The translations under genes and the position numbers were made by a program. A stretch of 22,162 nt of DNA from a virus (Duplodnaviria > Heunggongvirae > Uroviricota > Caudoviricetes). Shown here in pieces: positions 300 to 22,162 of the stretch. Location: the IMG/VR virus record IMGVR_UViG_2711768033_000004; one strand, 5' to 3'. The number at the start of each line of letters is the position of its first letter. The first letter of the stretch is position 1. Below the pieces are notes generated by a model. That model was given only the letters and a program-made list of their open reading frames with translations, made no database searches and was not told the DNA's origin.

Positions 300-323
300 A
301 TTGAAGCTGTTGAAAGCTTCTTA

Positions 324-3951: not shown

Positions 3952-5970
3952 TTAATAACTTTCTTTCAATTCTTTTTTCTCAATCATCTTTACAAGATCT
4001 AACTCATCCCACTTGACAAACCAATAAGTTTTGAGCATAGATTGCAGATCGCTCTCAATTTCCAAATGGCTTCTATTCACATTTTTCTCATATTTTTTGA
4101 GATATTTTCTGTACAAAAATCGTCTTGTCTCAATTGAAACAAATGGGCAAGACATAACATCCAAGAATAAATGTGCCTTTTCCGATGATTGTAATAAATC
4201 CATATCAGGATATAGCAAATCTTTAATTCTAACCTCAACAATATGTTTAAGTTCTTGATAAGGTTTTCTATTTCTAAAATAGAATAATAATGAGATTATT
4301 GTAAAGTAATCCAATTTCTTTTTATGTATAATACCATTAAAGAAAGAAGTGCTTACAAGATAATTACCCCCAAAAAAAGTAGCAGCTAATATCAAATTAA
4401 CTTTCTCTATGGAAATAAACCCATCAATAAAAAGACCATTGTCATTTTCACCAAAATTGATATTTTCAGCAGTATCTATTAATGTTGTCATAAAAATACT
4501 GCTATAATCACTTGAAAGCATTTTCAAATAATCATTAACGATAACCATTGTTTTTGATAATTTATATGAAGATGACACAGTTGGGTTAACACTGAAGAAA
4601 AACAACATTATATCAGTTACTAAAAATATAATATCTTTAATATTCTTACGTATTTCAACATCACCTTTAATCTTTTCCACCGGAAAGAAATCAATAATTA
4701 ATATTAATCTTTTTGATAATGAAGATATCAGATACGAGGAAATATCCGTGTAAGAAACCTTGTTATCAACACATATAGACTTGATATTATTTATCATATT
4801 CACTTTTAAATCATGCTTGCTTCTAATCTTATTTAGAAAAATGTCACCATCAATCCTTTTATATAATTTACCTTCAAGATTCCGCACTAGTTCGTTAACT
4901 TTAATGATCAATCCTGTCTTGCTAGTGCAGAATGGCCTAGAATATTTTTTAAGTTTATTGATATTTAACTGAAGATTAAAATCATTTAGCTTCACGTTAA
5001 TGGTTTTAGTGATAAGTTCAGCATTTGCTTCATTGTTGCAAAACACTATAAAATCATCCACATACCTTAATATCACATAGTCCTCGTGATTAACCCACCC
5101 GTATTCATCAAAAAGATTTGATTCAATACTACAATCGATACGCTGGAATATTAACTCAGCAAAGACCCGACTAAATTCTGAGCCTATAGGTATACCATTA
5201 GTTTCATTATTATTACTACGTTGCATCAACGTATCTAGTTCCTGACCAAATTGATTGCTATATTTCACATGTTTTCTGATGTAAGGTTTATTTTTTAAAG
5301 CCCATGAAATAGAATGAGTATATATACTATCAAAACAATGTGATACATCTAACATCCACATTATTGAGAATCTTTTCTCAAGATCAAAAAACATTTTACT
5401 TTGAAATAACTTATATATCCTATTAAATCCGCCATAAGAAAAATAAGATGATGAATACTTCCTCATTAATTCATCATTTGTTGTTTCAATATCCTCTCCT
5501 TTATATTTCTCTGAGGCATTATTTTCATATAAGAAGAATGAGTTTGCGACCTTTCGAGGATATCTTATAGAGTAATTACTTTTTGACGCATTTAATGTTA
5601 TAACAGTTGAGTAATTTTTATAAAACTCACAATAATTAAGTTGCGATCTGGGATGAATTAAAGAAAGATATCTTAAACTAAAAGCATCCTTGACAATGCA
5701 ATAGCCAAACGGAAAGCTTTGTTTCTTCTTTTCTTTTTCTCGTTCTTCTATTTTTATAGACAAATCAAAAGCAGGATTAATAATTTTCTTTACGAATGAA
5801 GAAAGGGGAGAGAAATACAAAATCTCCTTATAATGATTTTCAAACTCGGTCAGGTTCAAATACAATCCATCATTTGAAAAGATGATGGGACAGTCACCTG
5901 GTTGCGTATCACATAGTAAAGCCCTGAGGTAATCCTTCTTATCAAGTTTTACATTTTTCTTTATAGCCAT
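3952..5970 (-). CDS. reverse transcriptase with a long C-terminal extension (672 aa); second gene of the RT pair, UG/Abi-type, DRT3-like
   Basis: RT motif A WMLDVSHCFDSI, motif B GIPIGSEFSRVFAELIF, motif C LRYVDDFIVFC. About 350 aa of helical-looking sequence follow motif C. The start overlaps the upstream RT gene by 10 nt. Confidence 0.85.
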   Translation of the reverse strand: MAIKKNVKLDKKDYLRALLCDTQPGDCPIIFSNDGLYLNLTEFENHYKEILYFSPLSSFVKKIINPAFDLSIKIEEREKEKKKQSFPFGYCIVKDAFSLRYLSLIHPRSQLNYCEFYKNYSTVITLNASKSNYSIRYPRKVANSFFLYENNASEKYKGEDIETTNDELMRKYSSSYFSYGGFNRIYKLFQSKMFFDLEKRFSIMWMLDVSHCFDSIYTHSISWALKNKPYIRKHVKYSNQFGQELDTLMQRSNNNETNGIPIGSEFSRVFAELIFQRIDCSIESNLFDEYGWVNHEDYVILRYVDDFIVFCNNEANAELITKTINVKLNDFNLQLNINKLKKYSRPFCTSKTGLIIKVNELVRNLEGKLYKRIDGDIFLNKIRSKHDLKVNMINNIKSICVDNKVSYTDISSYLISSLSKRLILIIDFFPVEKIKGDVEIRKNIKDIIFLVTDIMLFFFSVNPTVSSSYKLSKTMVIVNDYLKMLSSDYSSIFMTTLIDTAENINFGENDNGLFIDGFISIEKVNLILAATFFGGNYLVSTSFFNGIIHKKKLDYFTIISLLFYFRNRKPYQELKHIVEVRIKDLLYPDMDLLQSSEKAHLFLDVMSCPFVSIETRRFLYRKYLKKYEKNVNRSHLEIESDLQSMLKTYWFVKWDELDLVKMIEKKELKESY

Positions 5971-7238
5971 ATTTTTGTGATCTCAGTGTAACGTTTGAAA
6001 TTGTACTTCCTATAAACTCTATCAACAAAACCTTTTCTAAAACTATTGCGCAATAACTCCTTTCTTTGGTTTACAGTGAAGGAATGTTTCGCAATACTAT
6101 GCAAACGTCCGTTGTTCGATTTAACACAATATAATAAAAAATCATCTAATTGCTTTAAGGATATAGAATTTACATCCAATCTTGCATTACTATAATAAAT
6201 TCCAGTACTAACCTTACCTTTCTCTAATGAACTTAATGATCTAATCTTCCTATTTAAATCTCTATTGCTTGTTAAAAAAGAAATTCTATCTAATAACAAT
6301 TTAAAATCACCAGTTCTATGGTAGGAGTAGAAAGCTCTTGCTATTCTAGTTTTAATTTTTTTTATGCGTCCACGAGATAAATCTACAGTTACTTTTCTAT
6401 ATACACTTAAAGTAGCACCTTTGTTACTTAGAGGAGAATCTATTACAGAAAAAGAGTAACCTAAAAAATCAAATTTATGGAGTAATTTATCTTTACCTGC
6501 CGTGCCTTTGCTTCTTTTGTCGATAAGTGGGGACACCTTCAACTTATTTGTATTTAAACTTAATCCCTTGGGTAACAAACTTTGTATTTGTTTCATTAAA
6601 GTCGATGGGCATTCATTTCCACTTGAAATGATCACCATATCATCTACAAAGCGAGAGTAATAAAACACTTCTGAATGCCGATGAATACTACTATCAAATG
6701 CTGCCAAATATAGCTCAGATAACATAGGACTAATCTCCAGTCCTCTTGGCAAACCTTTTGATGAATGGATTCTTTCACAAGCTTTAAGATACCATTCTAT
6801 CAAATTTTTAGTATGTCTGGATAAACGCCGTTCATCTTGCAAATATTGAAAGAGCTGAGGCAAATCGATAGATTCAAAAAAAGATTTTATATCTAAGCGA
6901 TACACTCGGAATTGTGCACCTTCTTTGAGATAAATTTTAAGCTCATCAATTATTTTATTTCTTTGTTTGGGTAGAAGTGACTCCAAACATTTTAAGTTTG
7001 CATTACAATGTCTAAGTATTAGTTTTTCTTTTAAACAAGATGCGTTGTAAACACAACGTCCTTTGATATTTATTTTCTTTACAGTTACTCCAGAACGAAA
7101 ATTTTCGCTGGCAATTAAAACAGCATCACTGATTAATGATTCTAATTTATCCACATTGTTTTTATTAAAATAAAAACTCTTCTCACTTTCACTCAAGTTA
7201 CGCTTAAGTGCTGATGAAGTAAATGGCTGCCGGTTCAT
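5961..7238 (-). CDS. reverse transcriptase (about 425 aa); first gene of the RT pair
   Basis: Motif A YRLDIKSFFESI, motif B GLPRGLEISPMLSELYL, motif C YSRFVDDMVIIS, LGYSF motif. The ORF track extends to 7322 with a non-ATG start, but ATG at 7238 is preceded by GAGGGGGG, so I prefer that start. Confidence 0.85.
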   Translation of the reverse strand: MNRQPFTSSALKRNLSESEKSFYFNKNNVDKLESLISDAVLIASENFRSGVTVKKINIKGRCVYNASCLKEKLILRHCNANLKCLESLLPKQRNKIIDELKIYLKEGAQFRVYRLDIKSFFESIDLPQLFQYLQDERRLSRHTKNLIEWYLKACERIHSSKGLPRGLEISPMLSELYLAAFDSSIHRHSEVFYYSRFVDDMVIISSGNECPSTLMKQIQSLLPKGLSLNTNKLKVSPLIDKRSKGTAGKDKLLHKFDFLGYSFSVIDSPLSNKGATLSVYRKVTVDLSRGRIKKIKTRIARAFYSYHRTGDFKLLLDRISFLTSNRDLNRKIRSLSSLEKGKVSTGIYYSNARLDVNSISLKQLDDFLLYCVKSNNGRLHSIAKHSFTVNQRKELLRNSFRKGFVDRVYRKYNFKRYTEITKIWL

Positions 7239-7637
7239 AACCCCCCTCACAGTACTATCCTTTATGCTTTTATAACTCTTTACATCGTTGCGCGCAATCG
7301 CATCCTCGCTACACTTGACCACTTAATGTAATAGTTTCAGTCACCTGCATGAAATTGTGTAGGCCACGCTGACAAGTTGGCGGCTCGCTGGTCCCCACCG
7401 CATAATATGGGCATCATCCCTAACAATACTGGCGGTTTTAGCGATATGGGAAGATCCAGACTCTTATTTGTTCACATTTAATTGATATCTCTGCAGGTGC
7501 GAAGAAAAGATGATCAACATCGAACCATACGATTTAGGATACCAAAAAGTAGCGAATCTCCCCCAGCAACACTTACATCTATTGAAACTGACTGAGTTTC
7601 GCGAATTGCGCCAGAATTGACCATTTAGCCCTACCAC

Positions 7638-9290: not shown

Positions 9291-11963
9291 TTAACCCGGC
9301 ACCTTGCTGTTGAAGACATAGAGCCTGCGGGGATTCATCTCTGGCGGGCGAATGGTTGTCTGGAGTTTGCCATCAGTGGAGGGGAGCAGGTATCCACGAT
9401 CTGCGCACAGACGCGCCACCTTGCGCGGGTCAAATCCCCTGCAGATTTCTTTCCAGCCGGACGGCATGACATAGAACGTAGTGACAGCTTCCGTGCCCTG
9501 CGCGGTACTGCCTTTCTCCACCCTGCGCCAGCCCACCATATTGCCGGGGCGGTTGCGCTCGTCATACCAGTCTGCAAAGCGGCTGTACTGATTCGCGGTA
9601 AAGAAACTGCGAACCTGCTCCAGTGCGGCAATATCTTCCTGATTGGCGGTGTGCCCGCGATCTTTCAGCCATGCGTTCAGGCAGACGCGGGTTGCCCGCA
9701 GTGCTTCACCCTCAGGCCAGCCGGTGATACCCAGACGGGTTGCCAGTTCACCCGCCATCGCCACCAGTGCAAAGCGATTCACAGCCCGGCCCACCTGATT
9801 GCCTGCATCTTTCGGAGTCAGGGCGGCAGCATATTCCTTCATCAGCGATTTTGCCTGTGCCGTTAGTCCATTAAGATCAGCGGTCAGTACTTTCAGCCAC
9901 TCCCGGAACGGCGAACCGTAGTAGCAGGACGTGGCCCATTCAAGATGCTCTGCCAGAGCCTTGCCGCTGTCGAAGCCGTGCAGTTCCTCAAAAACGCCAA
10001 ATTTCCCGGAATCGCTGGGGATCTGGATCATCCTGACTTCCATCCCGGCAAAAGTACGCTCACCGGCCTTTGCCGCATGTTCGGTCAGAGACAACTCGCC
10101 AGTTGAAAAGAACAACAGGCGCCACTGCTTACGGGTACGCAGCTCACCGTCCGTACCGGCACGGCCCTTGCCCTGACCGTTTGCCAGCATGTAGGCGATA
10201 TTGCCTGCCTCGCGTCCGTCAACTTCCCGGATCTCATCAAGCATCATGGCGGCATCGTTGCGGCGGCTGGCGCATCCCTCCAGCGCGTTGCCGGTGGCCC
10301 GCCATGTCTGCCAGTAGTCAGGCCCGCCGCAGACGGAGGTTGCCGCTTTCATGGTGGTGGTCTTACCGTCTGTCGATTCCCCTTTGAGGTGGTAGCCGCC
10401 GCCGTCCATACCAACCAGCCGTAACAGTGGTGCAGCAAAGGCCAGGCTGACAGCAAATGCCACGCGGGAGTTGCCGGCACAGTAGCGGGATACGTTCTCC
10501 CGCCATTCCTCTGTTGTGCCCGACACGCGGAAATCACGCCCCTGCACGGAAGTGGTCTGGAGAATGACACCCTCTGCACCTTCACCGCTGACCTCATCCT
10601 GCAGGACGTAAACCTGACCATGCCAGCCAGTACGGCTGACGCAGGTCACGCGGCGTTCCGGTTTACACAGTGAGATATATTCCATCAGGCGTGCGCGTGC
10701 CTCGCCGGTGGTGCTGATATAAGACAGCCCGTTAACCAGCAGTACCCGGCGCAGTTCCTCACCACTGCCGCTCAGCATTTCCATCGGCATCGCCCAGCGG
10801 CGACGCTCACCCCACGTATCTTCCCATTCCAGCAGTCGTCCGAAGTTACCGCCATCGGCATCGCAGGTGATTGCCGTCACGCGCAGCGGGCTGCATATTT
10901 TGACGTTCTGGATCTCCGTCTCACCGTTGCGCTGTACCTGCTTTTCATACCAGAGATATTCCTGGGTAAGACGGAACCCGTGCGGCAGTTGCGTGCGGCC
11001 TTCCCCGCACAGTACCAGACCGTTGCGAAAGGCTTCACGGGCACGGGTAATACCGTGCTCCCGATGAAAGTCATTCCAGTCAGCCTTAATCTCTCCTGGT
11101 GGCAGCGTCATCCAGCCGCCAACAGCTTTTGCCGCCCGTTCAGCAAAGGCTCTGCCGGGATTCTCACCCCCGTCCTGAAAATCGTTATCACCGGCGATGA
11201 TAATTTTTACCTCAGGCCAGCGTGCCCGCAGCGACTGCGCCACATTGGGCAGGTTGCCCGCAGATATGGCAGCCACTACGCATCCGGCAGTGAGCTGGCT
11301 TACCGTCAGCGCCGTAGCGTAACCTTCGGTAATCACCACCTGTACCGGTGGTTCAGACGGTAACGGGATGAGCGACACAAACGCGCCTTTCATCGTGCTG
11401 CCGGGCAGTATGCTTTTTTCACCCGTCGGGGCGATAAGCTGTGCACCGGTTACGGCTCCGGTGTTGGTCGTGAGTGGTAACAGCAGGGAACCGGCAGGGA
11501 AATCCTTACCGCTGATATGCTGCACGCTTCCGGTCAGATAGGCCGGGTATCCGGCGAACCCTTTTTCTGTCAGATAGGCGCTTTCTCCCGTGTGGCTCTC
11601 TTTCATCAGCGCCGCCACGGTAAGACCCATGTCGCGTTTAGGGGCTTTTTGTCTGGCAGGCTTAACAGGCAGTTCCTGCACATCCGGCACATTAAGCACC
11701 TGCGCCACCTCCTGCGCAGCCTTTCTGACGCTGTAACCGGTTACGAGCTTAACCAGATCCAGACCATCACCATTGCCACACTGGCTGCAGATCCACGTCC
11801 CGCGCCCGTCAAGGTCATCAAGGCGAAAACGATCCTTGCCCCCACATTTCGGGCAGGGACCGTGCCTGCCGTTTTCAGGTACATCAATACGCAGCATCTG
11901 CAGAATAACGGGCCATTTCCCCCGTGCGGCGGCTGAAATCTGCGTAACCGTCTGTATTGTCAT
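9291..11963 (-). CDS. P4 alpha-like primase-helicase (890 aa): Zn-ribbon, TOPRIM, SF3-type P-loop
   Basis: N-terminal CPKCGG...CSQCGNGDG zinc ribbon; TOPRIM-like IIIAGDNDFQDGGE; Walker A GESTDGKTT. High G+C typical of the P4 backbone. Start overlaps the upstream gene (ATGA). Confidence 0.9.
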   Translation of the reverse strand: MTIQTVTQISAAARGKWPVILQMLRIDVPENGRHGPCPKCGGKDRFRLDDLDGRGTWICSQCGNGDGLDLVKLVTGYSVRKAAQEVAQVLNVPDVQELPVKPARQKAPKRDMGLTVAALMKESHTGESAYLTEKGFAGYPAYLTGSVQHISGKDFPAGSLLLPLTTNTGAVTGAQLIAPTGEKSILPGSTMKGAFVSLIPLPSEPPVQVVITEGYATALTVSQLTAGCVVAAISAGNLPNVAQSLRARWPEVKIIIAGDNDFQDGGENPGRAFAERAAKAVGGWMTLPPGEIKADWNDFHREHGITRAREAFRNGLVLCGEGRTQLPHGFRLTQEYLWYEKQVQRNGETEIQNVKICSPLRVTAITCDADGGNFGRLLEWEDTWGERRRWAMPMEMLSGSGEELRRVLLVNGLSYISTTGEARARLMEYISLCKPERRVTCVSRTGWHGQVYVLQDEVSGEGAEGVILQTTSVQGRDFRVSGTTEEWRENVSRYCAGNSRVAFAVSLAFAAPLLRLVGMDGGGYHLKGESTDGKTTTMKAATSVCGGPDYWQTWRATGNALEGCASRRNDAAMMLDEIREVDGREAGNIAYMLANGQGKGRAGTDGELRTRKQWRLLFFSTGELSLTEHAAKAGERTFAGMEVRMIQIPSDSGKFGVFEELHGFDSGKALAEHLEWATSCYYGSPFREWLKVLTADLNGLTAQAKSLMKEYAAALTPKDAGNQVGRAVNRFALVAMAGELATRLGITGWPEGEALRATRVCLNAWLKDRGHTANQEDIAALEQVRSFFTANQYSRFADWYDERNRPGNMVGWRRVEKGSTAQGTEAVTTFYVMPSGWKEICRGFDPRKVARLCADRGYLLPSTDGKLQTTIRPPEMNPRRLYVFNSKVPG

Positions 11964-12655: not shown

Positions 12656-13015
12656 TCAGAGAAACTTTGAATAGTGACCGTCGTCAGGCTCAGCAGAACG
12701 CCATATGCTACGCTCCCGCCAGCGGATAAATAGCACAGACGGATGCAGTGTCAGCGGGCCGGAACCACTACCGCCTGCAGGAGCTGGTGCAGGCTTAAAG
12801 AGCGGTACATCAAACAGGCGCGTATACCGCTGTTCAAACCATGCCAGAGGGCAGGAAGAAAGCTGGTTGTCGCTGTCATGACGTATCAGCACTTCACAGC
12901 TGAATTCAGGATTAACCAGCGCCACAGAGGGCGAGGCTTCTATTAATCGGATAATCGTGACCGTCCAGCCACGTTCATGCTGCCAGCGTTCGCCGGGGTG
13001 CGGATAATTACGCAT
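12656..13015 (-). CDS. hypothetical protein (about 119 aa)
   Basis: ORF whose ATG at 13015 overlaps the stop of the upstream small gene (ATGCGTAA). The track's longer N-terminus (to 13045) is probably not used. Confidence 0.5.
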   Translation of the reverse strand: MRNYPHPGERWQHERGWTVTIIRLIEASPSVALVNPEFSCEVLIRHDSDNQLSSCPLAWFEQRYTRLFDVPLFKPAPAPAGGSGSGPLTLHPSVLFIRWRERSIWRSAEPDDGHYSKFL

Positions 13016-13185
13016 GTTCACCTCCGCAGGGAATGCGCCCGGCAAAGCTCAGTACATAGTCCGGGGCAAGTCTGCGCCGCGCTGACCGCTCGTTATCTGC
13101 GGTGATCCTTAACATCACAGGACGGGCATTGCGTTGACTGCGGTTGATCGCCGCAAATAACCAGGTACACTTCTGTTTAGCCATC
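13008..13185 (-). CDS. small protein (58 aa), possibly Icd-like; first gene of the primase operon
   Basis: Not in the ORF track because it is under 60 aa. Translation MAKQKCTWLFAAINRSQRNARPVMLRITADNERSARRRL... with AAGAGGT about 7 nt upstream of the ATG. The Icd-like call is from memory of a similar small family and is uncertain. Confidence 0.45.
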
Positions 13186-13275
13186 TTCGTTACCTCTTAT
13201 AACGGTTGGTTAAATGCCCGATTTGTGTTCCCGCACAATCGGGCATTGCTTTTACAAGCGAACTATACTTACAAT

Positions 13276-13319
13276 GGTAATTACCATGTAGTCATCATAT
13301 TCTAGGGTAATTACCATGT
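13276..13319. promoter_or_regulatory. two copies of GGTAATTACCATGT (perfect 10-bp palindrome GGTAATTACC plus ATGT), 30 bp apart; candidate operator pair
   Basis: Copies at 13276-13289 and 13306-13319. They sit in the divergent region between the primase operon and the RHH gene, and the second copy overlaps the RHH start codon. Confidence 0.5.
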
Positions 13320-13489
13320 CAACACCACAAGAGAAACGTTCTCCACCATTCCAAATGCGTCTTACCGACGATTTTAGGTTGCAACTCGAAAACGAAATGC
13401 GCAAAGATGGAGATAGCGCGTTGGCAACTTGGATTAAAAGAATTTTACGCAAAGAACTCCAATCACGCGGGATTGACCCTAAAGGCTAA
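13316..13489 (+). CDS. small ribbon-helix-helix (Arc/CopG-like) DNA-binding protein (57 aa)
   Basis: Not in the ORF track because it is under 60 aa. Translation MSTPQEKRSPPFQMRLTDDFRLQLENEMRKDGDSALATWIKRILRKELQSRGIDPKG has a strand-helix-helix pattern. Its start lies inside the operator repeat. Confidence 0.45.
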   Translation: MSTPQEKRSPPFQMRLTDDFRLQLENEMRKDGDSALATWIKRILRKELQSRGIDPKG

Positions 13490-13521: not shown

Positions 13522-13812
13522 TTAGGGAGTAGGTGATAATCTATTCCCTTTATTAATTGCTCTTGCCTTATTTCTCATTCCCTCAAAATGTTGACCTGAG
13601 TTTTCTTCAAACCCATCTCGCCACTTATAATAATCAGCAGCGCGCCATCGTGACATCCGACCTATTTTTATAGGTTTTGGAAAGCGATTCAGAGAAATCA
13701 ATCGATAAATCCATTTATCACTTAATAAACAATCGGAAGTAATAAACTTCATATCGATCAGAGAATCCATTGAAGGTCGTTGCAAAGTAGTATTATCATG
13801 TTTAGATAACAT
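13522..13812 (-). CDS. AlpA-family phage transcriptional regulator / excisionase-like protein (96 aa)
   Basis: KWIYRLISLNRFPKPIKIGRMSRWRAADYYKWRD matches the AlpA pattern (...IYRLI...FPKPIKLG.R...W...EW). GGAG lies 8 nt before the ATG. Confidence 0.7.
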   Translation of the reverse strand: MLSKHDNTTLQRPSMDSLIDMKFITSDCLLSDKWIYRLISLNRFPKPIKIGRMSRWRAADYYKWRDGFEENSGQHFEGMRNKARAINKGNRLSPTP

Positions 13813-13937: not shown

Positions 13938-14762
13938 TTAGTTAAACTTAATGTTTTTCATGCAACTACGTAGCAAACTAACAACAGTATCATAGCTCAA
14001 AGGCGGTTCTCCGGTCTTAGGCCAGAACTCACTGGCATGTTGAAAAAGATAATCAGCTATCGCTGCTGGACTCTCTCTTCTTAGCCTCATATCACGATGA
14101 TAGAGCGAAATAATAGCCATGAGTATTTCAGCTCGAGGAACAGCATGTTTTTGTTTTTGCGCCTCAGATTGTGATTTATATTTATTGGCGTTTTTTATCC
14201 GCTTTTGTTCGCATAAGACTATATCAATGAATTTTTGAATCTGTACCTTTGTAATCCACAAAACCTCAAAAAGATAATAATTTTCTTTTTCATCATAATT
14301 TACATAAAGAATTACCTTACAATTTATATTAGGCGTACCCGCCAGTAGAAAATGAATAGGCCAGGAATCCGGTTGCCCCTCATGCTTAACTAACAGATCT
14401 TTATATTCATAATCAACAGCCCATAAACCGGATATGAAACATCGAATAAAACCATTTTTATCAATTAAATTATCTTCATCAGGGATTCTTATAGAACTTA
14501 AGTCTGACAACATAATATTGCCATTTCTATCTCGTGGTAAATATTTCAGATTAGATAAGAACTCATCCATTTGACCATCAATCTTCAAACCACATGAAAC
14601 ATCATACTCATCATCATGGAATTCCATGCATAGCTCTACATCTCGTTCTCTGGCAAACCAGAGTATATCCTTTTCACTACAACCAATTTTTTCTGAAGCT
14701 TCCTCCAACTGGTAGTAATCTCTGAGCAGAGAATCAGTATTATTAATTTTTAAAATATTCAT
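13938..14762 (-). CDS. hypothetical AT-rich protein (274 aa) with a possible N-terminal HTH, translationally coupled to the integrase
   Basis: Its ATG overlaps the integrase stop (ATGA). The N-terminal segment YQLEEASEKIGCSEKDILWFARE looks HTH-like. The rest has no recognisable motif. Confidence 0.7.
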   Translation of the reverse strand: MNILKINNTDSLLRDYYQLEEASEKIGCSEKDILWFARERDVELCMEFHDDEYDVSCGLKIDGQMDEFLSNLKYLPRDRNGNIMLSDLSSIRIPDEDNLIDKNGFIRCFISGLWAVDYEYKDLLVKHEGQPDSWPIHFLLAGTPNINCKVILYVNYDEKENYYLFEVLWITKVQIQKFIDIVLCEQKRIKNANKYKSQSEAQKQKHAVPRAEILMAIISLYHRDMRLRRESPAAIADYLFQHASEFWPKTGEPPLSYDTVVSLLRSCMKNIKFN

Positions 14763-15949
14763 TTATGAGTACCAATTAGCTCAGATAAATAATTAGCATA
14801 CCATTGCATCATTTCTCTTCTCCCTTCGAGATATTGGGCATGGTTATAAATTCCACGAATAGAGTTTTTGTCCGAATGAGCAAGCTGGGTTTCAATCCAA
14901 GCGCTGTTAAATCCTTTCTCATGTAGGATTGTACTCATCGTATGCCTGAAACCATGCCCCGTAACACGCCCTGCATATCCAATACGTTTAAACACCTGAT
15001 TAATGCTTGCTTCACTCATAAATTTGCTAGGATCGTTGCGTCCAGGGAACATCAGCGGGTAGTTCCCAGTTAGTTCTTTCAAACTTTTGAGATGGGATAA
15101 TGCTTGTTTTGACAACGGGACAATATGGCTCCTACGCATTTTCATACGTTCTTTTGGGATCTCCCACACCGCATTATCAAAATCCACCTCTCGCCACTCA
15201 CCTGCTCGTAGTTCTCCAGTTCGTAGACCTGTCAGGATAAGTAAATGCGCCCCCAACAATACAATTGGACTTCCTGAATAAGAATTAAGGGCATTAAAGA
15301 ACTCCGGTAGTTCGTTGGCTTTGAGGAATGGATAGTGGACTGCTTCATGTCCTTGCATCGCACTGGCAAGATCCGGTGCCGGATTGTAGATTGCCCTACC
15401 CGTTACGATGGCATAGCGAAAAACTTCACCGCATCGCTGACGGACTTTCTTCGCTTTCTCCATAGCGCCTCGAGTTTCTATCAACCTCAGAACTTCAAGC
15501 AGTTCAAGGGGCTGAATATCAGCTATAGGTCTGTGCCCAATATGCGGGAAAATGTCTTTCTCGAATGCCTCAATGATGTCGGAAGCATAGCCCTCAGACC
15601 ATTTGGGTGATTTCATTTTGTGCCACTCTAACGCCACTTCTCTGAATGGGTTAAGTGTCTCAATCGCTGCATTTAAAGCCTGCTTTTTGGCTTTTTTGAC
15701 TTCGCCGGGATCTTCACCTGCTGCGAGTAGTTTCTTCGCGTCTTCTCGTTTTTGTCTGGCATCAGCAAGTGTGACTGTTGGATAAACACCAAAGGACAAT
15801 CGTTTCTCTTTACCAGCAAAACGGTATTTCATACGCCAGTAACGCGAGCCATTAGGTTCGACCTGAAGGTATAGGCCACCTCCATCAAACAGCTTGTAGC
15901 TCTTCTCTTTTCCTTTCGCAGCTTCAACCTTGCGGGCATTCAGCATCAT
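14759..15949 (-). CDS. P4-type tyrosine integrase
   Basis: Begins MMLNARKVEAAKGKEKSYKLFDGGGLYLQV, typical of a P4-family integrase N-terminus, with the catalytic region ...HGFRHT... It lies about 165 bp from the tRNA 3' fragment. The track's longer ORF starts at a TTG (16018); I prefer ATG 15949. Confidence 0.9.
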   Translation of the reverse strand: MMLNARKVEAAKGKEKSYKLFDGGGLYLQVEPNGSRYWRMKYRFAGKEKRLSFGVYPTVTLADARQKREDAKKLLAAGEDPGEVKKAKKQALNAAIETLNPFREVALEWHKMKSPKWSEGYASDIIEAFEKDIFPHIGHRPIADIQPLELLEVLRLIETRGAMEKAKKVRQRCGEVFRYAIVTGRAIYNPAPDLASAMQGHEAVHYPFLKANELPEFFNALNSYSGSPIVLLGAHLLILTGLRTGELRAGEWREVDFDNAVWEIPKERMKMRRSHIVPLSKQALSHLKSLKELTGNYPLMFPGRNDPSKFMSEASINQVFKRIGYAGRVTGHGFRHTMSTILHEKGFNSAWIETQLAHSDKNSIRGIYNHAQYLEGRREMMQWYANYLSELIGTHK

Positions 15950-16113
15950 TGGGGGCACATTTCCTAGACCGAACAGAACATGCCCCTGATTGTGCCCCCA
16001 ACCGCGTGTTGATTTCAAGAGACAAGGGTTGACCTCAAACGTATGAAAACAACGTAATATATATGTTTTTAAATGATTTTGTTGATGTGGGTTGACTTGG
16101 GAAAACTAGGTGA

Positions 16114-16159
16114 TGGTGCCGATAATAGGAGTCGAACCTACGACCTTCGCATTACGAAT
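16114..16159 (-). repeat. partial tRNA-Thr(CGU) (thrW-like) 3' portion, 46 nt from the anticodon loop to CCA; att remnant, not a functional tRNA
   Basis: The reverse complement reads ATTCGTAATGCGAAGGTCGTAGGTTCGACTCCTATTATCGGCACCA: anticodon CGT, T-loop TTCGACT, acceptor 3' strand and CCA. The sequence 5' of this does not match a tRNA, so no cloverleaf can form. Confidence 0.8.
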
Positions 16160-16411
16160 TATAAGAATCCGCTTCTAATTCAAAGCATTACCCCATCAAC
16201 ACTGCGCTCACACGTCCCACCACATCAAAACATGTAAAGCCTTGCAAGCCATTGTGAGGCCTTATGTGTCTCAGTTTTGTCCCACCTTGTATTACGACTT
16301 GCATAGCCAATGAAGATCAACGTGACGACAAACGGCGCAGCAGTCTTCTTTTCCTTCATACTTTCCCTTCCCCTTCCCCACCATGCATACTTTTCTGCCA
16401 TAACTAAAGTG

Positions 16412-16549: not shown

Positions 16550-19500
16550 TTATCTCGTAAAATTAGTTTTATGACTTCCTGTTAGCTGACTGTCTTCATA
16601 ATAAAATGCCCCACTAAACTCCTGTCGACCATAATGATGACTTGATGTGAGTGAGCCCCCTATAACACCTTTTTCACCTAATAATGTCCAAACGATTTCA
16701 AAACCATTGTCCCTTAACATTGTTAAAAATGGTTCTTTTTTAACAAGTAGATGCGGCTTTGAAGCATATACAGCTTCAGCTGCAAAGCAAACCATAGTTC
16801 CATTTTCATCATTGAAGCTACCCTCTACTTCCCCATTTTTTAAGCCCATCTTTTCAAAGATTAAGTTGCTAGGCTTCAAAAAATTCAAAGCTTCTATTTT
16901 TGATTTGTCGAACTCCTCTCCCCACAAATAATTAATCGAAGTGACACTAACATCAGCTATCTTAGCTCCAGACTCCCGGTCTGTTACCGAAGTCCAGTCA
17001 GAACCACCATAATAATCTGATTTAAAAGACTTAAATGCTTCGGACCAATAGTACTCCCTATTAAATAATTGGTATCTATCAGTACATTCCGGCATCCACC
17101 TGCCCATAAAGTCTTGAGCTATTGCCCAACATCTAAAATTTTCAAATTCTTGAACTTTAACGATATAACTTCTGATCTGATACCAAACCTCTTTTCGTGG
17201 GTGCCCCCAATCATCGTTTCCAATAATTTTTGGTTCTTTCCATGATGGATAACTTTCTAATACTATCCATTCATCACCATTATCATCTTTAACTTCAATC
17301 AAAGCATATGGATTAGTTATAGTAGTAGAGCTTTTAACCCAGTCTTCATTAGAGCAAGTCCAATCAAACACTTCATCATTAAGCCACCACATTTCTTTAT
17401 TGCTTATTTTTTTCGTCCCAGTTTCTTTAAGTAAGATAGTGGGATCTATATCTCTTACGTAAGGCTCCCATGGCCCTTGGTATGGGTTTTCCTTTCGGTC
17501 GTCACCATAACCTTCAAAACGAATAAAATTATCGGCTAGCCTTGCCATGTATTCATAATAAGCAATCCATTGGTATTTTTTACCAATCCGTTCTTGGAAT
17601 TCCTCTCTACGTCCACGTCCAGTTCCTATTTGTTGATCAAAATCACCATGCTTCTCCGGATCCCAACCAAGTTCCAGAACACGATTGAATATAAATTGTT
17701 GAGCTAGTCGAAGATCAAAGTGTTTATCAGTTTCCAGCAGATTATTATTATGATCTAGGTATGGCTCTATTTCATTTTCAAACTCACTTAACAGATCGTA
17801 TGACAATGAATTCTTAAATAGCTTCTTGCTCGCCTTTATTTCTTCCTGTGCTTTTCTACCGACCACGCTACCAAATTTAATTCCTTCACATTTATCATCA
17901 TAAATGAAAGGATCTGTAGCATCATACAATTTTTTTTGTTGGTCAGTTAGTTTACATTTGAAAGTTTTAAAAATTTTCTTACGGTCAATAGGAGTTTCAT
18001 TAAACTTGCAACCAGACCAATCAGAATGATTGTAATTTGTTCCAATGGTATATCGTGAAAAGTCACCACCTCCCATAATCGAGCTCCAGAGTGCCCGATA
18101 AGGTTCTTTATTATAAAGAGACTCTAGTTCCTCTTTTGGAGGAATCTCGTCAGGCCAAATGCTGTTGTAGGGTGGCCTAGTCTTGGATAATTCAATACTT
18201 TCAAGTTCCAGTCCAAGATGATTAGCAAATTCAATAATCTCTCTCGCATAATCTCTAAGTAATATATTTGGATACACAGACTCAGAACAAAATACCTTTT
18301 GGTAAACAGTTTCGGCTAAATATTTTAGTTCTTTAATATTATCAGTTCGCAATGTACAACCCAATGCAACTGCAAATATTCTTTCCCAAACGTAAGGATC
18401 ATTTACACCATAAAACTTATCAATTATTTTTCTCAATACAGGAATTCTTGGCTCGAGTAAACTCACTAAAGCCTTGGTTGAGCAATCTCGAAGTTCTCGG
18501 TTACTAGAAGTTAAAAACCAGCATAAACTAGTTGCAACTAGCTCGATTGACTCATCCGAAACGAAGCTTTTATCTGTTCTGCCCCATGCCCAATCGATTA
18601 GATGCCTAAATGCTGAGTCTTCACTATATTTATATTTAAGTTTTGTAGTCCAACACGAATCTCGATTTCCCAAAGAGTAATCTTTTAGCCAATCATGCAA
18701 GAAATTAGCATTAAAGGGATGGTCAACTAAACCTGAAATAGAGATCACTGCCTCGAGAAAATGATCAAAACTACCTTTAAATTTAAAAACATGTTCATTG
18801 ATGAAAGGTCTGATTTTTTCGAAATCAATAGCCTTAATATCTCGCCATATCAAGCTATCAATAAAGGCTTCTAGTAATTTATGATTATTGCTGAACTCCG
18901 GCAGAAATTCATAAAGCTCTTTTCCATACTTTTCTGGCAATTGAATAGAAAGCGCCTCAACTATTCCCGAGTTTGTATAAAAATCACATTCATCATGAAA
19001 ATATTTTTTCAGACGACCATCTGACTTAAATTCATTTTCGATATTTTCAACATCATTTAATAAAAAATTAACGGTTAAATGATCATCAAACCTTTCAAAA
19101 GCCACATGAACTACTTCCTCAGTAGCATTATCATTATTTCTCACTATGCCTTTAGTCAATAATCCTTCGTCAATCAAGGCGCTGAGGAAATTTTTATCTG
19201 TAACATAATCATTAACTACAGATTGAACCACTGAGTGAGCATCTCTAAGTGAAATACTATTACTACCAATCTCTAATTTGAATTTTATGATTTCGTTGAG
19301 AGCATCTTTTACAAGAGGAAAACTGGGATCGAAATCATATTTTTTTGGCGATGCCAATGATTTATTCACCCCTTCCACTAAAAAGTTAAAAATATTTGAA
19401 ATCCCATTAAACCCAACAGGTACTTTGGTTAAACCATTTTTCTTAATGCCTTCACACAATAACTTAAGAAATAGAGGGTTTTTAAACTCTGGATTAAGAT

Positions 19501-21004
19501 TAGGTGATGAAGGCCTCTCTATATTGTAATAATCATAAAATAGACTAACCGCTTCTAACTCAACATTCTGAAATCCAATATGTTCATGAATTTCAAAATT
19601 ATTTCGCTCAACATTCTCATGTGAAATTGTTACATTTCTATATGTTGTTCTGACTGACATTATCAGACCAAGCCATTCAAAGCATCTGATTTCATCGACA
19701 AAACTGTTAATATTGTCATTCCAGAATTTATTTCCATTACCTTCATTAATAGCATCAATGAAAACCAAGACTCTTTTTCCTGTTTTTTTGCCATATAAAT
19801 TCAGTTTTTCCAGGAATTCACGAGAAGTGATTTTAAGCTGTAATCTCTTGAAGATCTGTGACCATGGAGATTCATCTGAAGTAAGTTGTTGCCCTAGTAT
19901 GAGTAGAGAAGGATATCCAGAAGCAATTCGATTTTTAATCACATCAGCCAGTAAATGAGACTTACCAATTCCAGCTTTTCCTTCGAGAAGTAAGAATGGG
20001 TTGTTAGCCAACTTTACTGTTGTTGAATTAATGAATGTACGTAATTCATTGCACGCATAGTCAAGTTCCCGAAGCATTCGCAGAGTAGATGAATACTTAT
20101 CACTGTAATGCTTGGTTTCACCTACTTGTTCTGACTTTTCTCGGAGTTCCCACAATATTGATTCCGCTCCGCCAATAGCTGTCTGGCAGCTGTCAACATA
20201 GTTATTAAATTTATTTATAGGAATTTGATCTAATTTAGAAAAATTAAGCTCTTGATATATATCCGCAATTTGATTTAAGGACTCGTCTATTACAGATAAT
20301 TCTGAGTAAATTACATCGCAACTATGTAACCTCTTTCTAGTCATCAGAAAATTATCTATATGTGAGTAAAATATTTTAGCAAAATCATCAGTTCTACCGA
20401 GACCATCAAATATCTCTGCTATTTCTAGCTTTACGTTGAGTTCGGGTGTGTATCGGCCTCCCAAGTCAGCTATTGCTTGACTATTTTTTTCATTTAACCA
20501 ACCATCACTCAAGTGAAAAGTTAGTTTGTCATCTATAGACCGCAAAATAAGTTTAACTTGAATAAGCTCTTCATTAATATCGAATATTTTTTCTTTATAC
20601 GTTTCTTCGATATGTAGCTTTTTTAACTTCGAACAATTATTGATTTTTAACGATAACATCTCATAAAAAAGGCTGAGTTGTTGTTGAGTTGGGGGGGTGA
20701 TGCTTGGATATTCTTTGAACTTGTCTAATAATATCCCTTTGTCAGGGAACTCTTTAAACAAGATGTGTTCATTCAACATCTCAAACAATGGTTCAGAATG
20801 ATAAAATGGAATTGCTCCACTTTCTACTGGATATGTTTCTTCAAACTCAATTGCCGTCTCTTCAATTAGTTGATATAATCTATCCACATATCTTTTTTGG
20901 GGGAATAATGCTTTCTTAATACAACCATATCCTTCTTGAGAGATGAATTGATCAATAAGTTTAGTTGCTACATAAGTTGCCACTGTAATTGATATAGGTT
21001 CCAT
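16550..21004 (-). CDS. large STAND / NACHT-like P-loop NTPase (1484 aa), candidate antiviral NLR-like protein
   Basis: Uninterrupted 4.4-kb ORF, markedly AT-rich. Walker A LLLEGKAGIGKSHLL (GxAGxGKS, NACHT-type) at about residue 340; Walker B-like RVLVFIDAINEG. It has an unassigned N-terminal domain of about 330 aa and a C-terminal region of about 1000 aa. Confidence 0.8.
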   Translation of the reverse strand: MEPISITVATYVATKLIDQFISQEGYGCIKKALFPQKRYVDRLYQLIEETAIEFEETYPVESGAIPFYHSEPLFEMLNEHILFKEFPDKGILLDKFKEYPSITPPTQQQLSLFYEMLSLKINNCSKLKKLHIEETYKEKIFDINEELIQVKLILRSIDDKLTFHLSDGWLNEKNSQAIADLGGRYTPELNVKLEIAEIFDGLGRTDDFAKIFYSHIDNFLMTRKRLHSCDVIYSELSVIDESLNQIADIYQELNFSKLDQIPINKFNNYVDSCQTAIGGAESILWELREKSEQVGETKHYSDKYSSTLRMLRELDYACNELRTFINSTTVKLANNPFLLLEGKAGIGKSHLLADVIKNRIASGYPSLLILGQQLTSDESPWSQIFKRLQLKITSREFLEKLNLYGKKTGKRVLVFIDAINEGNGNKFWNDNINSFVDEIRCFEWLGLIMSVRTTYRNVTISHENVERNNFEIHEHIGFQNVELEAVSLFYDYYNIERPSSPNLNPEFKNPLFLKLLCEGIKKNGLTKVPVGFNGISNIFNFLVEGVNKSLASPKKYDFDPSFPLVKDALNEIIKFKLEIGSNSISLRDAHSVVQSVVNDYVTDKNFLSALIDEGLLTKGIVRNNDNATEEVVHVAFERFDDHLTVNFLLNDVENIENEFKSDGRLKKYFHDECDFYTNSGIVEALSIQLPEKYGKELYEFLPEFSNNHKLLEAFIDSLIWRDIKAIDFEKIRPFINEHVFKFKGSFDHFLEAVISISGLVDHPFNANFLHDWLKDYSLGNRDSCWTTKLKYKYSEDSAFRHLIDWAWGRTDKSFVSDESIELVATSLCWFLTSSNRELRDCSTKALVSLLEPRIPVLRKIIDKFYGVNDPYVWERIFAVALGCTLRTDNIKELKYLAETVYQKVFCSESVYPNILLRDYAREIIEFANHLGLELESIELSKTRPPYNSIWPDEIPPKEELESLYNKEPYRALWSSIMGGGDFSRYTIGTNYNHSDWSGCKFNETPIDRKKIFKTFKCKLTDQQKKLYDATDPFIYDDKCEGIKFGSVVGRKAQEEIKASKKLFKNSLSYDLLSEFENEIEPYLDHNNNLLETDKHFDLRLAQQFIFNRVLELGWDPEKHGDFDQQIGTGRGRREEFQERIGKKYQWIAYYEYMARLADNFIRFEGYGDDRKENPYQGPWEPYVRDIDPTILLKETGTKKISNKEMWWLNDEVFDWTCSNEDWVKSSTTITNPYALIEVKDDNGDEWIVLESYPSWKEPKIIGNDDWGHPRKEVWYQIRSYIVKVQEFENFRCWAIAQDFMGRWMPECTDRYQLFNREYYWSEAFKSFKSDYYGGSDWTSVTDRESGAKIADVSVTSINYLWGEEFDKSKIEALNFLKPSNLIFEKMGLKNGEVEGSFNDENGTMVCFAAEAVYASKPHLLVKKEPFLTMLRDNGFEIVWTLLGEKGVIGGSLTSSHHYGRQEFSGAFYYEDSQLTGSHKTNFTR

Positions 21005-21112
21005 GATTAGCTTCTTCCAATAATTAAAATTTTACCAAGCGTTTATGCCTTACAATATGTATTGTATCTCACCGTAAAACATATTTATGTGGTTTTAAAC
21101 CTATCTGTAAAT

Positions 21113-21129
21113 CTTGCCACCTTGGCAAG
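21113..21129. promoter_or_regulatory. palindrome CTTGCCA-CCT-TGGCAAG (7-bp arms) in the promoter region of the NTPase gene
   Basis: Read directly from the sequence, about 110 bp upstream of the NTPase start codon and downstream of the invertase gene. Confidence 0.3.
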
Positions 21130-21526
21130 AACCTAATCCTACATTTTAATATCAGTCTATATAATATAGCCAGTGTCATAATAATCGGGCTTGTCATAGT
21201 TAAGTATTCGCCTCCGATATCCCAATGAGATAAGTAAGTCATCAGTGTTATAAATGAAAAGATCACATTTTTCAAAGAGTTATTATGATGGAATATTATT
21301 CAAAACGCAATGTAGCTGAAACGAGTCTGAGTTTAACATCCGCTCCTAGTACATAGTAGTCCCAGGGACAGTGGCGTAAAGTCATAGATGGCCGGTGGGA
21401 GGTGGTGGAAATCCTCTCATGCAAAAAATACATAAAATCGATAACGGCTGGAAATCATTCAATACTCGCACCATCGAAAGTTCACCAGCCAACCGCGCAC
21501 GATCTTGCATACGACATGCTACGGTT

Positions 21527-22081: not shown

Positions 22082-22162
22082 GGTAGATCTCCCTGGCAAA
22101 AGCAGGAATGATGCCATTTGCTCGTTATTTCTGCATTTTCATAAACGTTGGTTTGGGAGAAG

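What the first reader, a model, noticed from the sequence alone, without database searches (positions are those of the whole stretch)
13186..13489. Twin palindromic operators overlapping the start of a small RHH gene, divergent from the primase operon
GGTAATTACCATGT occurs twice, 30 bp apart (13276-13289 and 13306-13319). The second copy contains the start codon of a 57-aa ribbon-helix-helix-like ORF, and the region faces the divergently transcribed primase operon. This looks like an autoregulated switch controlling replication-gene expression. The small ORFs here fall below the ORF-track size cut-off.
Basis: seen in the sequence. Interest (0 to 1): 0.4.

Follow-up and report, generated by a model that had tools for sequence, protein, structure and literature searches.

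The report
Satellite prophage repressor switch plus antisense RNA
A small Arc-like protein and its two identical binding sites sit on the main early promoter of a P4-like satellite prophage, beside an unannotated SymR-like antisense RNA, and together they probably keep the satellite's replication genes silent.

Summary
GGTAATTACCATGT occurs exactly twice (13276-89, 13306-19), and no shuffle of 100 reached the observed number of matches. The 57-aa ORF (13316-13489) is a real, conserved gene (dN/dS about 0.1) of an unnamed Arc-like ribbon-helix-helix family.

The window is a P4-like satellite prophage. The two palindromes bracket the -10 of a near-consensus leftward promoter (TTGACA-17-TATGAT) that drives the Icd-like-to-primase operon. 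One palindrome lies in the spacer and the other at about +1. The RHH start codon overlaps the -35.

In about 60 loci from Enterobacterales, Pasteurellaceae and Orbales this geometry is kept. The palindrome sequence changes together with the protein's N-terminal strand. Nearly identical early operons carry five interchangeable regulator and operator sets, as in heteroimmune phages.

It has strong covariation, a promoter fixed at synonymous sites, and reciprocal similarity to E. coli SymR. P4's own CI/C4 RNA is absent here.

I rate this a new variant of known kinds. Nothing has been tested experimentally.

The parts
13276..13285 (.). Operator O1: GGTAATTACC, extended palindrome ATGGTAATTACCAT at 13274-13287. 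It lies 8-9 nt downstream of the leftward -10, covering the predicted leftward start site (about 13287).
   Evidence: Position relative to the promoter is conserved in about 35 distinct loci.
13306..13315 (.). Operator O2: GGTAATTACC, inside the 17-bp spacer of the leftward promoter and abutting its -35. It also sits immediately 5' of the RHH ATG.
13294..13322 (-). P_left, the early promoter of the Icd-like-to-primase operon: -35 TTGACA (13322-13317), 17-bp spacer, -10 TATGAT (13299-13294), 11 of 12 matches.
   Evidence: A perfect TTGACA with 16-18 bp spacing is found in nearly all related loci.
13316..13489 (+). 57-aa Arc-like ribbon-helix-helix protein, the predicted repressor. Predicted strand about residues 10-16 (PPFQMRL), helices 18-31 and 33-50.
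13524..13549 (+). Terminator-like hairpin plus T run that ends the monocistronic RHH transcript. It lies within the 3' end of the convergent AlpA-like gene.
13246..13275 (+). Candidate RHH promoter (weak, 8 of 12): TTGCTT (13246-51), 18 bp, TACAAT (13270-75), abutting O1 and face to face with P_left. The alternative is read-through from the antisense-RNA promoter.
   Evidence: Read from the sequence. A TAnnAT hexamer next to O1 recurs in class A loci. The scanner did not report it, and it is unclear in other classes.
13179..13253 (+). SymR-like cis-antisense RNA of about 75 nt. It has an outer helix GCCA/UGGU, an inner hairpin CGUUA/UAACG whose loop CCUC is the anti-Shine-Dalgarno, and a 15-bp terminator hairpin (13213-13247) followed by GCUUUU. 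It is complementary to the SD and AUG of the Icd-like gene.
13144..13171 (+). Promoter of the antisense RNA, inside the Icd-like ORF: TTGATC (13144-49), 16 bp, TACACT (13166-71), then 7 nt to the start at 13179.
   Evidence: TAnnnT at this exact offset in 37 of 38 distinct sequences, with the codon-6 wobble base T in 37 of 38 across 8 codon types. Same geometry as the mapped symR promoter. Flagged independently in L008.
13008..13184 (-). Icd-like host cell-division inhibitor, first gene of the early operon.
   Evidence: NF033153, 84 bits
9291..13045 (-). Rest of the early operon: 129-aa, 94-aa and DUF5375 proteins, then the 890-aa primase (zinc ribbon, Toprim, DUF927).
13522..13812 (-). AlpA/Vis-like excisionase or regulator, upstream of and co-directional with the early operon. 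No minus-strand terminator separates it from the RHH gene.

Best explanation
The window holds a P4-like satellite prophage: integrase, AlpA/Vis-like gene, Icd-like-to-primase operon, Delta, Sid/Psu-like gene.

The 57-aa protein is an Arc-like RHH dimer that binds the two identical palindromes. O2 lies in the spacer of the strong leftward early promoter and O1 lies over its start site. Occupancy should therefore block RNA polymerase and keep the cell-division inhibitor and primase genes off in the lysogen.

The same two sites lie across the RHH gene's own upstream region, whichever promoter feeds it. The protein should therefore limit its own synthesis.

A second layer acts after transcription. 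A constitutively promoted 75-nt SymR-like RNA is made from the opposite strand of the operon leader. It pairs with the Shine-Dalgarno and AUG of the first gene, so stray transcripts are not translated.

Shown here: the sequence anatomy, its conservation, protein and operator covariation, module swapping, RNA covariation, and promoter conservation at synonymous sites.

Inferred: DNA binding, repression, autoregulation, expression of the RNA, and how a helper phage lifts the block.
For: 1. The repeat is far above chance.
2. P_left scores 11 of 12, and O2 and O1 flank its -10. The same layout holds in about 35 distinct loci from many genera. It holds even where the RHH ATG is displaced (L046).
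3. The gene is real. There are 85 homologues at 54-98% identity, mostly 56-62 aa, and dN/dS is 0.08-0.21.
4. RHH identity is supported by several weak lines.
   - PHROG Arc-like repressor, E 0.003.
   - 8 of 26 members hit Pfam Arc.
   - Remote members pass the Pfam cut-offs for HicB and Arc.
   - The alignment to P22 Arc puts PPFQMRL on Arc's PQFNLRW strand.
   - The AF2 model shows an extended N-terminus plus two helices.
5. Specificity covaries.
   - RSP(P/Q)(F/Y)QMRL goes with GGT-N4-ACC.
   - RSPQFPMRL goes with GGTATATACC.
   - KTDQYQ(I/L)RL goes with TGTAATTACA.
   - RGNPPFQFRL goes with GTGTAATTACAC.
6. In front of Icd-like genes that are at least 96% identical there are five regulator and operator sets. 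Two are RHH classes and three are YlcI/YnfO types, each of these with its own triple repeat.
7. RNA evidence.
   - 95.8% of cells are paired, against 34-46% when the structure is slid.
   - 14 pairs are compensatory, and 0 of 500 shuffles reach the observed values.
   - There are 100 G-U pairs on the plus strand against 6 on the minus strand.
   - Folding z-score is -5.5.
   - The -10 is fixed at synonymous sites.
   - The Rfam SymR model hits 13179-13250 at 31.6 bits.
   - My model, built without symR, finds K-12 symR at its annotated start with 32.8 bits, E 1e-5.
Against: - There is no experimental evidence of any kind.
- The window protein itself passes no curated family cut-off.
- Fold searches on the monomer model were uninformative.
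- The RHH promoter is weak or unclear.
- In class E loci the leftward -10 (TGTAAT) lacks the key A.
- O1-O2 spacing varies from 30 to 35 bp, so cooperative binding on one DNA face is not implied.
- The loci were found through the RHH protein, so its linkage to the palindromes is partly by construction.
- The Rfam SymR score is half the gathering threshold.
Confidence: 0.72

Rival explanations
1. The palindromes are real operators, but they are read by another protein and the RHH protein does something else. Candidates are the neighbouring AlpA/Vis-like protein or a helper-phage factor such as Cox or Ogr.
For: When the module is swapped, the DNA to the right of the RHH gene changes too. P2 Cox is known to act on P4 promoters (my own knowledge).
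Against: The right-hand neighbour varies: AlpA-like, integrase directly, or neither. The RHH and palindrome pairing does not vary. The palindrome class tracks the RHH N-terminal strand. Helper-encoded factors would not explain five element-specific site sets in one host species.
Confidence: 0.1
2. The RHH protein is a lytic-phase or fine-tuning regulator of the Cro/Apl or Arc type, which turns the early operon down after induction. It is not the maintenance repressor of the integrated satellite.
For: P22 Arc, the closest characterised relative, is such a late shut-off regulator and not the prophage repressor (my own knowledge). Some loci also carry P4/P1-type C4 and isrK RNAs that could provide immunity (L044).
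Against: The RHH gene is transcribed opposite to the early operon, so it is not made from it. The window has no C4, isrK or other known immunity element. The heteroimmune-style diversity is typical of maintenance repressors.
Confidence: 0.1
3. The RHH protein is the antitoxin of a toxin-antitoxin pair with the Icd-like or SymE-like first gene. The palindromes are its autoregulatory site.
For: RHH proteins are common antitoxins. Kawano et al. 2007 (PMC1891008) listed RHH genes next to SymE-family toxins. The first gene is a toxic-type protein: Icd-like here and SymE in L047.
Against: The RHH gene is monocistronic with its own terminator and is divergent from the putative toxin. At 57 aa it has no extra toxin-binding tail. 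In L006 the first gene behind the cassette is the primase itself. The operon continues into replication genes.
Confidence: 0.05
4. The repeat is a by-product with no dedicated binding protein, for example a duplicated promoter segment or small RNA hairpins at transcript 5' ends.
For: O1 can form a 5-bp hairpin at the 5' end of the leftward RNA. Palindromic covariation alone cannot separate DNA symmetry from RNA pairing.
Against: O2 is not in the leftward transcript. It forms only a 3-bp stem. Within each locus the two sites change together, and they change with the protein. The sequence between the sites is not conserved.
Confidence: 0.03

Closest known systems
P22 Arc repressor and its operator in the Pant promoter (immI region)
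   Same: Both are small RHH proteins of about 55 aa. The strand motifs are similar: PQFNLRW in Arc and PPFQMRL here. In both, the operator lies between the -35 and -10 of a strong promoter that overlaps an oppositely oriented one, and the protein regulates itself (Arc biology is from my own knowledge).
   Different: Arc binds one 21-bp operator as a tetramer. Here there are two separate 10-14-bp palindromes 30-35 bp apart, flanking the -10. Arc is made from the promoter it represses, whereas this gene is read in the opposite direction. The host element is a satellite and not a phage. Sequence similarity is marginal (hhalign probability 12%).
P2 C repressor and the Pe/Pc switch, and the 186 CI pR/pL switch
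   Same: Both have face-to-face early and repressor promoters. Both have two repressor sites flanking the -10 of the early promoter, and the repressor gene is read away from the early operon (my own knowledge of P2 and 186).
   Different: The P2 and 186 repressors are helix-turn-helix proteins, and the P2 sites are direct repeats. Here the protein is an RHH and the start sites nearly coincide. The RHH promoter is only a candidate.
Phage P4 immunity (CI RNA = Rfam C4, with isrK and c4-a1b1 targets in the PLE leader)
   Same: The element type and the position are the same: the leader between the Vis/AlpA gene and the operon that ends in the alpha primase. In both cases an RNA acts on the leader.
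   Different: P4 has C4, isrK and c4-a1b1 hits and no divergent protein gene. The window has none of these RNAs. It carries a protein repressor plus a cis-antisense RNA on the opposite strand. My RNA model finds nothing in P4.
SymE/SymR type I toxin-antitoxin of E. coli K-12 (Rfam RF01809; Kawano et al. 2007, PMC1891008)
   Same: Both are antisense RNAs of about 77 nt that start 3 nt inside the target ORF. In both, the -10 lies 7 nt upstream within codons 5-7. Both have an outer helix, an inner hairpin and a terminal hairpin with a GUGUU...GCAC core. Model hits are reciprocal, and a regulated promoter lies just beyond the RNA's 3' end.
   Different: The score is below Rfam's gathering threshold (31.6 against 61). 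The target here is an Icd-like gene heading a replication operon, not SymE. The upstream promoter is controlled by an RHH protein and not by LexA. Expression has not been shown.
P1 immI (c4 RNA, icd, ant)
   Same: In both, an Icd-type division inhibitor is the first gene of an early operon, and its translation start is the target of a small RNA (my own knowledge of P1).
   Different: The P1 C4 RNA is processed from the same strand upstream and acts in trans on repeated targets. Here the RNA is a true cis-antisense transcript of a different family.
YlcI/YnfO family proteins (NF041551) at the same position in other E. coli P4-like elements
   Same: These are small genes of about 61 aa facing away from an identical Icd-like operon and SymR-like leader, with an RHH-like pattern.
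   Different: Sequence similarity is only marginal (BLASTP E 0.017). The sites are three direct repeats (for example GTGAATCGCAC), not two palindromes. The regulator has room for its own separate promoter.

Membership tests
Ribbon-helix-helix (Arc/MetJ/CopG) superfamily | Sequence signature: an N-terminal strand of alternating polar and hydrophobic residues, helix A, a G-containing turn and helix B, recognised by RHH profiles. | tested here: met
   The window protein passes no curated cut-off. Supporting lines are PHROG 228 Arc-like at E 0.003, 8 of 26 family members hitting Pfam Arc with best E 1.5e-4, and remote family members passing the Pfam cut-offs for HicB (P0106, P0109) and Arc (P0124). 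Membership is therefore transitive and not direct.
Ribbon-helix-helix (Arc/MetJ/CopG) superfamily | Three-dimensional fold: an intertwined dimer with a two-stranded antiparallel sheet. | tested here: inconclusive
Ribbon-helix-helix (Arc/MetJ/CopG) superfamily | Sequence-specific binding to palindromic or repeated operators through the strand residues. | not testable with these tools
   The evidence is indirect only: strand and N-arm residues covary with the palindrome class.
SymR antisense RNA (Rfam RF01809) | Score at or above the Rfam gathering threshold (61 bits). | tested here: not met
   31.6 bits, E 7.7e-4 in a 1-kb search. There was no hit at the gathering threshold in the whole window. 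I therefore do not file it as a member of RF01809. It is a related, broader family.
SymR antisense RNA (Rfam RF01809) | Architecture and placement: starts 3 nt inside the target ORF, -10 lies 7 nt upstream, outer helix plus inner hairpin plus terminal hairpin. | tested here: met
   The model built from 35 satellite loci finds K-12 symR at exactly its annotated first base.
SymR antisense RNA (Rfam RF01809) | The target gene is a SymE-family toxin. | tested here: not met
   The target in the window is Icd-like. In L047 the same cassette precedes a true SymE toxin (Pfam 73.5 bits).
SymR antisense RNA (Rfam RF01809) | The RNA is expressed and represses translation of the target. | not testable with these tools
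   No expression data were available. The promoter is conserved at synonymous sites.
P4-like phage satellite | Core gene set: integrase, alpha-type primase, Delta, Sid/Psu, AlpA/Vis. | tested here: met
   The same element in other E. coli genomes lies at tRNA-Thr.
P4-like phage satellite | CI (C4-type) RNA immunity in the early leader. | tested here: not met
   No C4, isrK or c4-a1b1 hit in the window. P4 itself gives 75, 61 and 44 bits for these.
Type II toxin-antitoxin module with an RHH antitoxin | Antitoxin and toxin are co-transcribed in one operon, and the antitoxin carries a toxin-binding extension. | tested here: not met
   The RHH gene is monocistronic with its own terminator, is divergent from the Icd-like gene, and at 57 aa consists of the RHH core only.

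The most novel reading that the evidence does not exclude
Many P4-like and PICI-like satellites of Enterobacterales, Pasteurellaceae and Orbales may share a two-tier gate on their early operon.

The first tier is a set of interchangeable, heteroimmune small RHH-type repressors, each with its own operators on a conserved strong promoter.

The second tier is a conserved cis-antisense RNA that belongs to a superfamily including E. coli SymR.

On this reading the chromosomal symE-symR locus is a domesticated fragment of such a satellite cassette. The repressor type would also define satellite immunity groups, and possibly which helper signal induces each satellite.
Probability: 0.45. Interest if true: 0.68.

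Novelty: new variant of a known kind. Interest (0 to 1): 0.55.

Why it matters
P4 is the textbook satellite, and its immunity is RNA-based. How the thousands of P4-like elements that lack the CI RNA stay silent has not been described in the papers I could search.

A swappable protein repressor with its cognate operators would define immunity groups among satellites. It would also give handles for inducing or silencing them, and many carry defence systems such as the DRT3 system in this window.

The antisense RNA would widen the SymR family from one chromosomal toxin locus to a general leader control in mobile elements, and would suggest where symER came from.

Both proposals can be tested directly with simple reporter, gel-shift and Northern experiments.

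Tried and rejected
- **Rfam at gathering thresholds.** Nothing was found in the window, and there were no tRNAs.
- **P4-type CI/C4 RNA in the leader.** It is absent here and present in P4.
- **PDB sequence search with the family profile.** It returned only designed helical repeat proteins, which are spurious.
- **Pfam and NCBIfam on the window protein.** No family was found.
- **Pinning the RHH promoter.**
  - The scanner does not report one in the window.
  - My candidate scores 8 of 12.
  - In class C loci the best candidate -10 (TGTAAT) lacks the A at position 2.
  - I therefore leave two options open: the gene's own weak promoter, or read-through from the antisense-RNA promoter.
- **Extra operator copies.** I looked near the AlpA-like, integrase and late genes and found none.
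- **The hairpin at 13213-13247 as a minus-strand terminator or attenuator.** I rejected this because no T run follows it on that strand and its G-U pairs lie on the plus strand.
- **Literature searches.** Searches for an RHH repressor or a SymR-like RNA in P4-like or PICI elements found nothing specific.

Full report
**The observation**

GGTAATTACCATGT is present at 13276-13289 and 13306-13319. With up to two mismatches the window has 4 matches against 0.18 expected, and none of 100 shuffles reaches that number. The 10-bp core GGTAATTACC is a perfect palindrome that occurs only at these two places in 22 kb. The first copy extends to a 14-bp palindrome. The second copy ends at the ATG of a 57-aa ORF, 13316-13489.

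**Context**

The window is a P4-like satellite prophage. On the minus strand, from right to left, it carries:

- a tyrosine integrase (14759-16018);
- a 274-aa unknown protein;
- an AlpA/Vis-like gene (13522-13812);
- after the plus-strand small ORF, an Icd-like cell-division inhibitor (13008-13184);
- three small ORFs, one of them DUF5375;
- an 890-aa zinc-ribbon/Toprim/DUF927 primase (9291-11963);
- a Sid/Psu-like gene and an Ogr/Delta gene.

An element with a 100% identical 1-kb regulatory region sits at tRNA-Thr in E. coli VG12A2. There RefSeq calls the small ORF a hypothetical protein.

**The promoter under the palindromes**

The consensus scan finds one strong site in the region, on the minus strand. 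It is TTGACA (13322-13317), a 17-bp spacer, then TATGAT (13299-13294), 11 of 12 matches.

O2 (13306-13315) fills the spacer next to the -35. O1 (13276-13285) lies 8-9 nt beyond the -10, over the expected start at about 13287. The RHH start codon overlaps the -35 hexamer.

Sites in these two positions are the classical way to exclude RNA polymerase. I read the palindromes as operators of the early promoter of the Icd-like-to-primase operon.

**The small protein**

The ORF is a real gene.

- A search of 5.8 billion proteins gives 85 relatives at 54-98% identity. Most of them are 56-62 aa long. They come from Escherichia, Salmonella, Citrobacter, Erwinia, Pantoea, Yersinia, Xenorhabdus, Photorhabdus, Gilliamella and Pasteurella.
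- dN/dS against the window gene is 0.08-0.21, with synonymous sites near saturation.
- An exhaustive profile search of 1.84 billion representatives finds only 43 clusters, so the family is narrow.

The window protein passes no curated family threshold. Several weaker lines agree that it is Arc-like.

- PHROG 228, Arc-like repressor, E 0.003.
- 8 of 26 members hit Pfam Arc.
- Remote members pass Pfam's own cut-offs for the HicB RHH domain and for Arc.
- The alignment to P22 Arc puts PPFQMRL on Arc's DNA-reading strand PQFNLRW.
- The AlphaFold monomer has an extended N-terminus and helices at 18-31 and 33-50.

Fold searches on the monomer were uninformative, as expected for an obligate dimer.

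**Comparative test of the operator idea**

A scan of one genome per species returned 68 loci. In about 35 distinct sequences the layout is the same. A perfect TTGACA, a 16-18-bp spacer and a -10 lie on the strand opposite the RHH gene. One palindrome abuts the -35 and a second lies just past the -10.

In L046 the RHH start codon is 15 nt further away, but the two sites keep their positions in the leftward promoter. The geometry therefore belongs to that promoter.

The palindrome sequence falls into classes that match the protein's N-terminal arm and strand:

| Protein N-terminal motif | Palindrome |
|---|---|
| RSP(P/Q)(F/Y)QMRL | GGT-N4-ACC |
| RSPQFPMRL | GGTATATACC |
| KTDQYQ(I/L)RL | TGTAATTACA |
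| RGNPPFQFRL | GTGTAATTACAC |

Both sites in a locus change together.

**Natural swap experiments**

Loci L060 and L061 have an Icd-like-to-primase operon 97-100% identical to the window's. Their RHH protein is only 54% identical and their palindrome is different.

I also retrieved viral contigs through the Icd-like protein, at 96% identity or more. All carry the same leader, but they hold five regulator and operator sets:

- two RHH classes;
- three YlcI/YnfO-type proteins, with three direct repeats of GTGAATCGCAC, of GTGTGGCCCAC, or of GTGTC(G/C)GACAC.

Among 5,426 complete E. coli genomes, 333 hold the Icd-like 5' end and leader, and 66 hold this RHH module. The module is always present once and always chromosomal.

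This is the pattern of heteroimmune repressor and operator cassettes. It is the strongest evidence here that the small protein reads the palindromes. It remains indirect.

Homology between E. coli elements breaks at about 13210-13244. To the left of that point, the leader is conserved in every locus whatever the first gene is: Icd-like, a primase fusion, unknown proteins, or a SymE toxin in L047.

A permissive Rfam search gave one notable hit on the plus strand, SymR at 13179-13250. It scored 31.6 bits, E 7.7e-4, which is below the gathering score of 61.

An alignment of 35 loci supports three elements:

- an outer helix GCCA/UGGU;
- an inner hairpin whose loop CCUC is the anti-Shine-Dalgarno;
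- a long terminal hairpin followed by a U-rich run.

The structure statistics are strong.

- 95.8% of cells are paired, against 34-46% when the partners are slid.
- 14 pairs have compensatory changes, and 0 of 500 shuffles reach the observed values.
- G-U pairs number 100 on the plus strand against 6 on the minus strand, so the plus-strand transcript is the folded one.
- The window copy folds at -28.5 kcal/mol, z = -5.5.

**The promoter of that RNA**

Exactly 7 nt upstream of the conserved AGCCAT, which is the reverse of the first gene's ATGGCT, 37 of 38 distinct sequences have TAnnnT. This hexamer lies in codons 5-7 of proteins with different sequences. The wobble base of codon 6 is T in 37 of 38 cases, across eight codon types. 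That is selection on the DNA and not on the protein.

The experimentally mapped symR of K-12 has the same layout: -10 TAGAAT, 7 nt, then AGTCAT, starting 3 nt inside symE. The published knock-out mutated these same codon positions.

A covariance model built only from the satellite loci finds K-12 symR at its annotated first base with 32.8 bits, E 1e-5. It finds the element next to every Icd-like gene tested.

I conclude that 13179-13253 encodes a SymR-related cis-antisense RNA that covers the ribosome site and AUG of the Icd-like gene. RefSeq does not annotate it. It fails the Rfam threshold, so I do not file it in RF01809.

**Relation to P4**

P4 has C4 (its CI RNA), isrK and c4-a1b1 in the equivalent leader, and no divergent protein gene. 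The window has none of those RNAs, and my model finds nothing in P4. The two systems are not exclusive, because a Rodentibacter locus has both.

**How it most likely works**

In the lysogen, the RHH dimer occupies O2 and O1 and shuts the early promoter. The sites also lie across the route to its own gene, so it limits itself. The antisense RNA blocks translation of any escaped leader.

Three things remain open:

- the RHH promoter, which is either a weak TTGCTT-18-TACAAT facing P_left or read-through from the antisense-RNA promoter;
- the oligomeric state of the protein on each site;
- the inducing signal.

One possibility, which is inference only, concerns transcription from the AlpA-like gene. 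No minus-strand terminator separates it from the RHH gene. Such transcription would run antisense through the RHH gene into the operon, as P4's late PLL transcript does.

**Literature**

I found no paper describing an RHH repressor or a SymR-like RNA in P4-like or PICI elements. Kawano et al. 2007 noted RHH and primase-helicase genes near some SymE genes, but not this cassette.

**Verdict**

The finding is real and its interpretation is supported by inference. The parts are of known kinds. What is new is their combination in a satellite, the heteroimmune diversity of the regulators, and the wider SymR family.

Noticed in passing
window 3952-7322 (-): Two adjacent reverse-transcriptase genes match the DRT type 3 defence system: Drt3b, 672 aa, E 4e-200, and Drt3a, 453 aa, E 1e-130. 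They lie in the satellite's cargo region between the late genes and the end of the element.
   Followed up: partly
window 1567-2946 (-): A 459-aa FRG-domain protein matches the PADLOC candidate defence gene PDC-S15 (E 2e-97).
   Followed up: partly
window 18-1166 (+): An IS1 transposase fragment (18-284) is followed by only the C-terminal 280 aa or so of a Hachiman HamB helicase (324-1166). This looks like a defence system disrupted by IS1.
   Followed up: partly
window about 16112-16160 and 16550-22117: The 3' half of tRNA-Thr (thrW) lies next to the integrase, but there is no whole tRNA in the window. Beyond it lie an Avs2 gene (1484 aa, 1751 bits) and a resolvase. The satellite therefore seems to abut a second island rather than the intact tRNA seen in strain VG12A2.
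   Followed up: partly
L047:2640-2906 (Limnobaculum allomyrinae): The first gene behind the same RHH, twin-palindrome and SymR-like cassette is a true SymE toxin (Pfam 73.5 bits). This links the satellite cassette to the chromosomal symE-symR locus.
   Followed up: partly
L044:2510-2947 (Rodentibacter myodis): Rfam C4 (67 bits) and isrK (55 bits) lie downstream of the SymR-like element and the RHH-controlled promoter. P4/P1-type RNA immunity and this cassette can therefore coexist.
   Followed up: no
L002:5350-5660; L078, L085, L093: Other E. coli P4-like elements carry YlcI/YnfO-family small proteins at the same position. Each has three direct repeats of its own 11-12-bp motif: GTGAATCGCAC, GTGTGGCCCAC or GTGTC(G/C)GACAC. 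The function of this protein family is undescribed.
   Followed up: partly
window 13123-13138 and 13240-13255: A 16-nt direct repeat, CGGGCATTGC(G/T)TT(G/T)AC, links codons 16-21 of the Icd-like gene to the 3' arm of the antisense-RNA terminator. It could be a second pairing site or chance. It does not covary in L002.
   Followed up: no
L073 (Pasteurella phage Pmp8, OR544139): A 15-kb record deposited as a phage carries the same RHH, operator and SymR-like cassette in front of a primase operon, together with a large terminase. It is probably a capsid-forming satellite rather than a phage.
   Followed up: partly
window 13938-14762 (-): A 274-aa ORF overlaps the integrase stop codon by 4 nt. It has no match in Pfam, PHROGs or PADLOC, and it is conserved with the module in Citrobacter and Pantoea (60-93% identity).
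   Followed up: no
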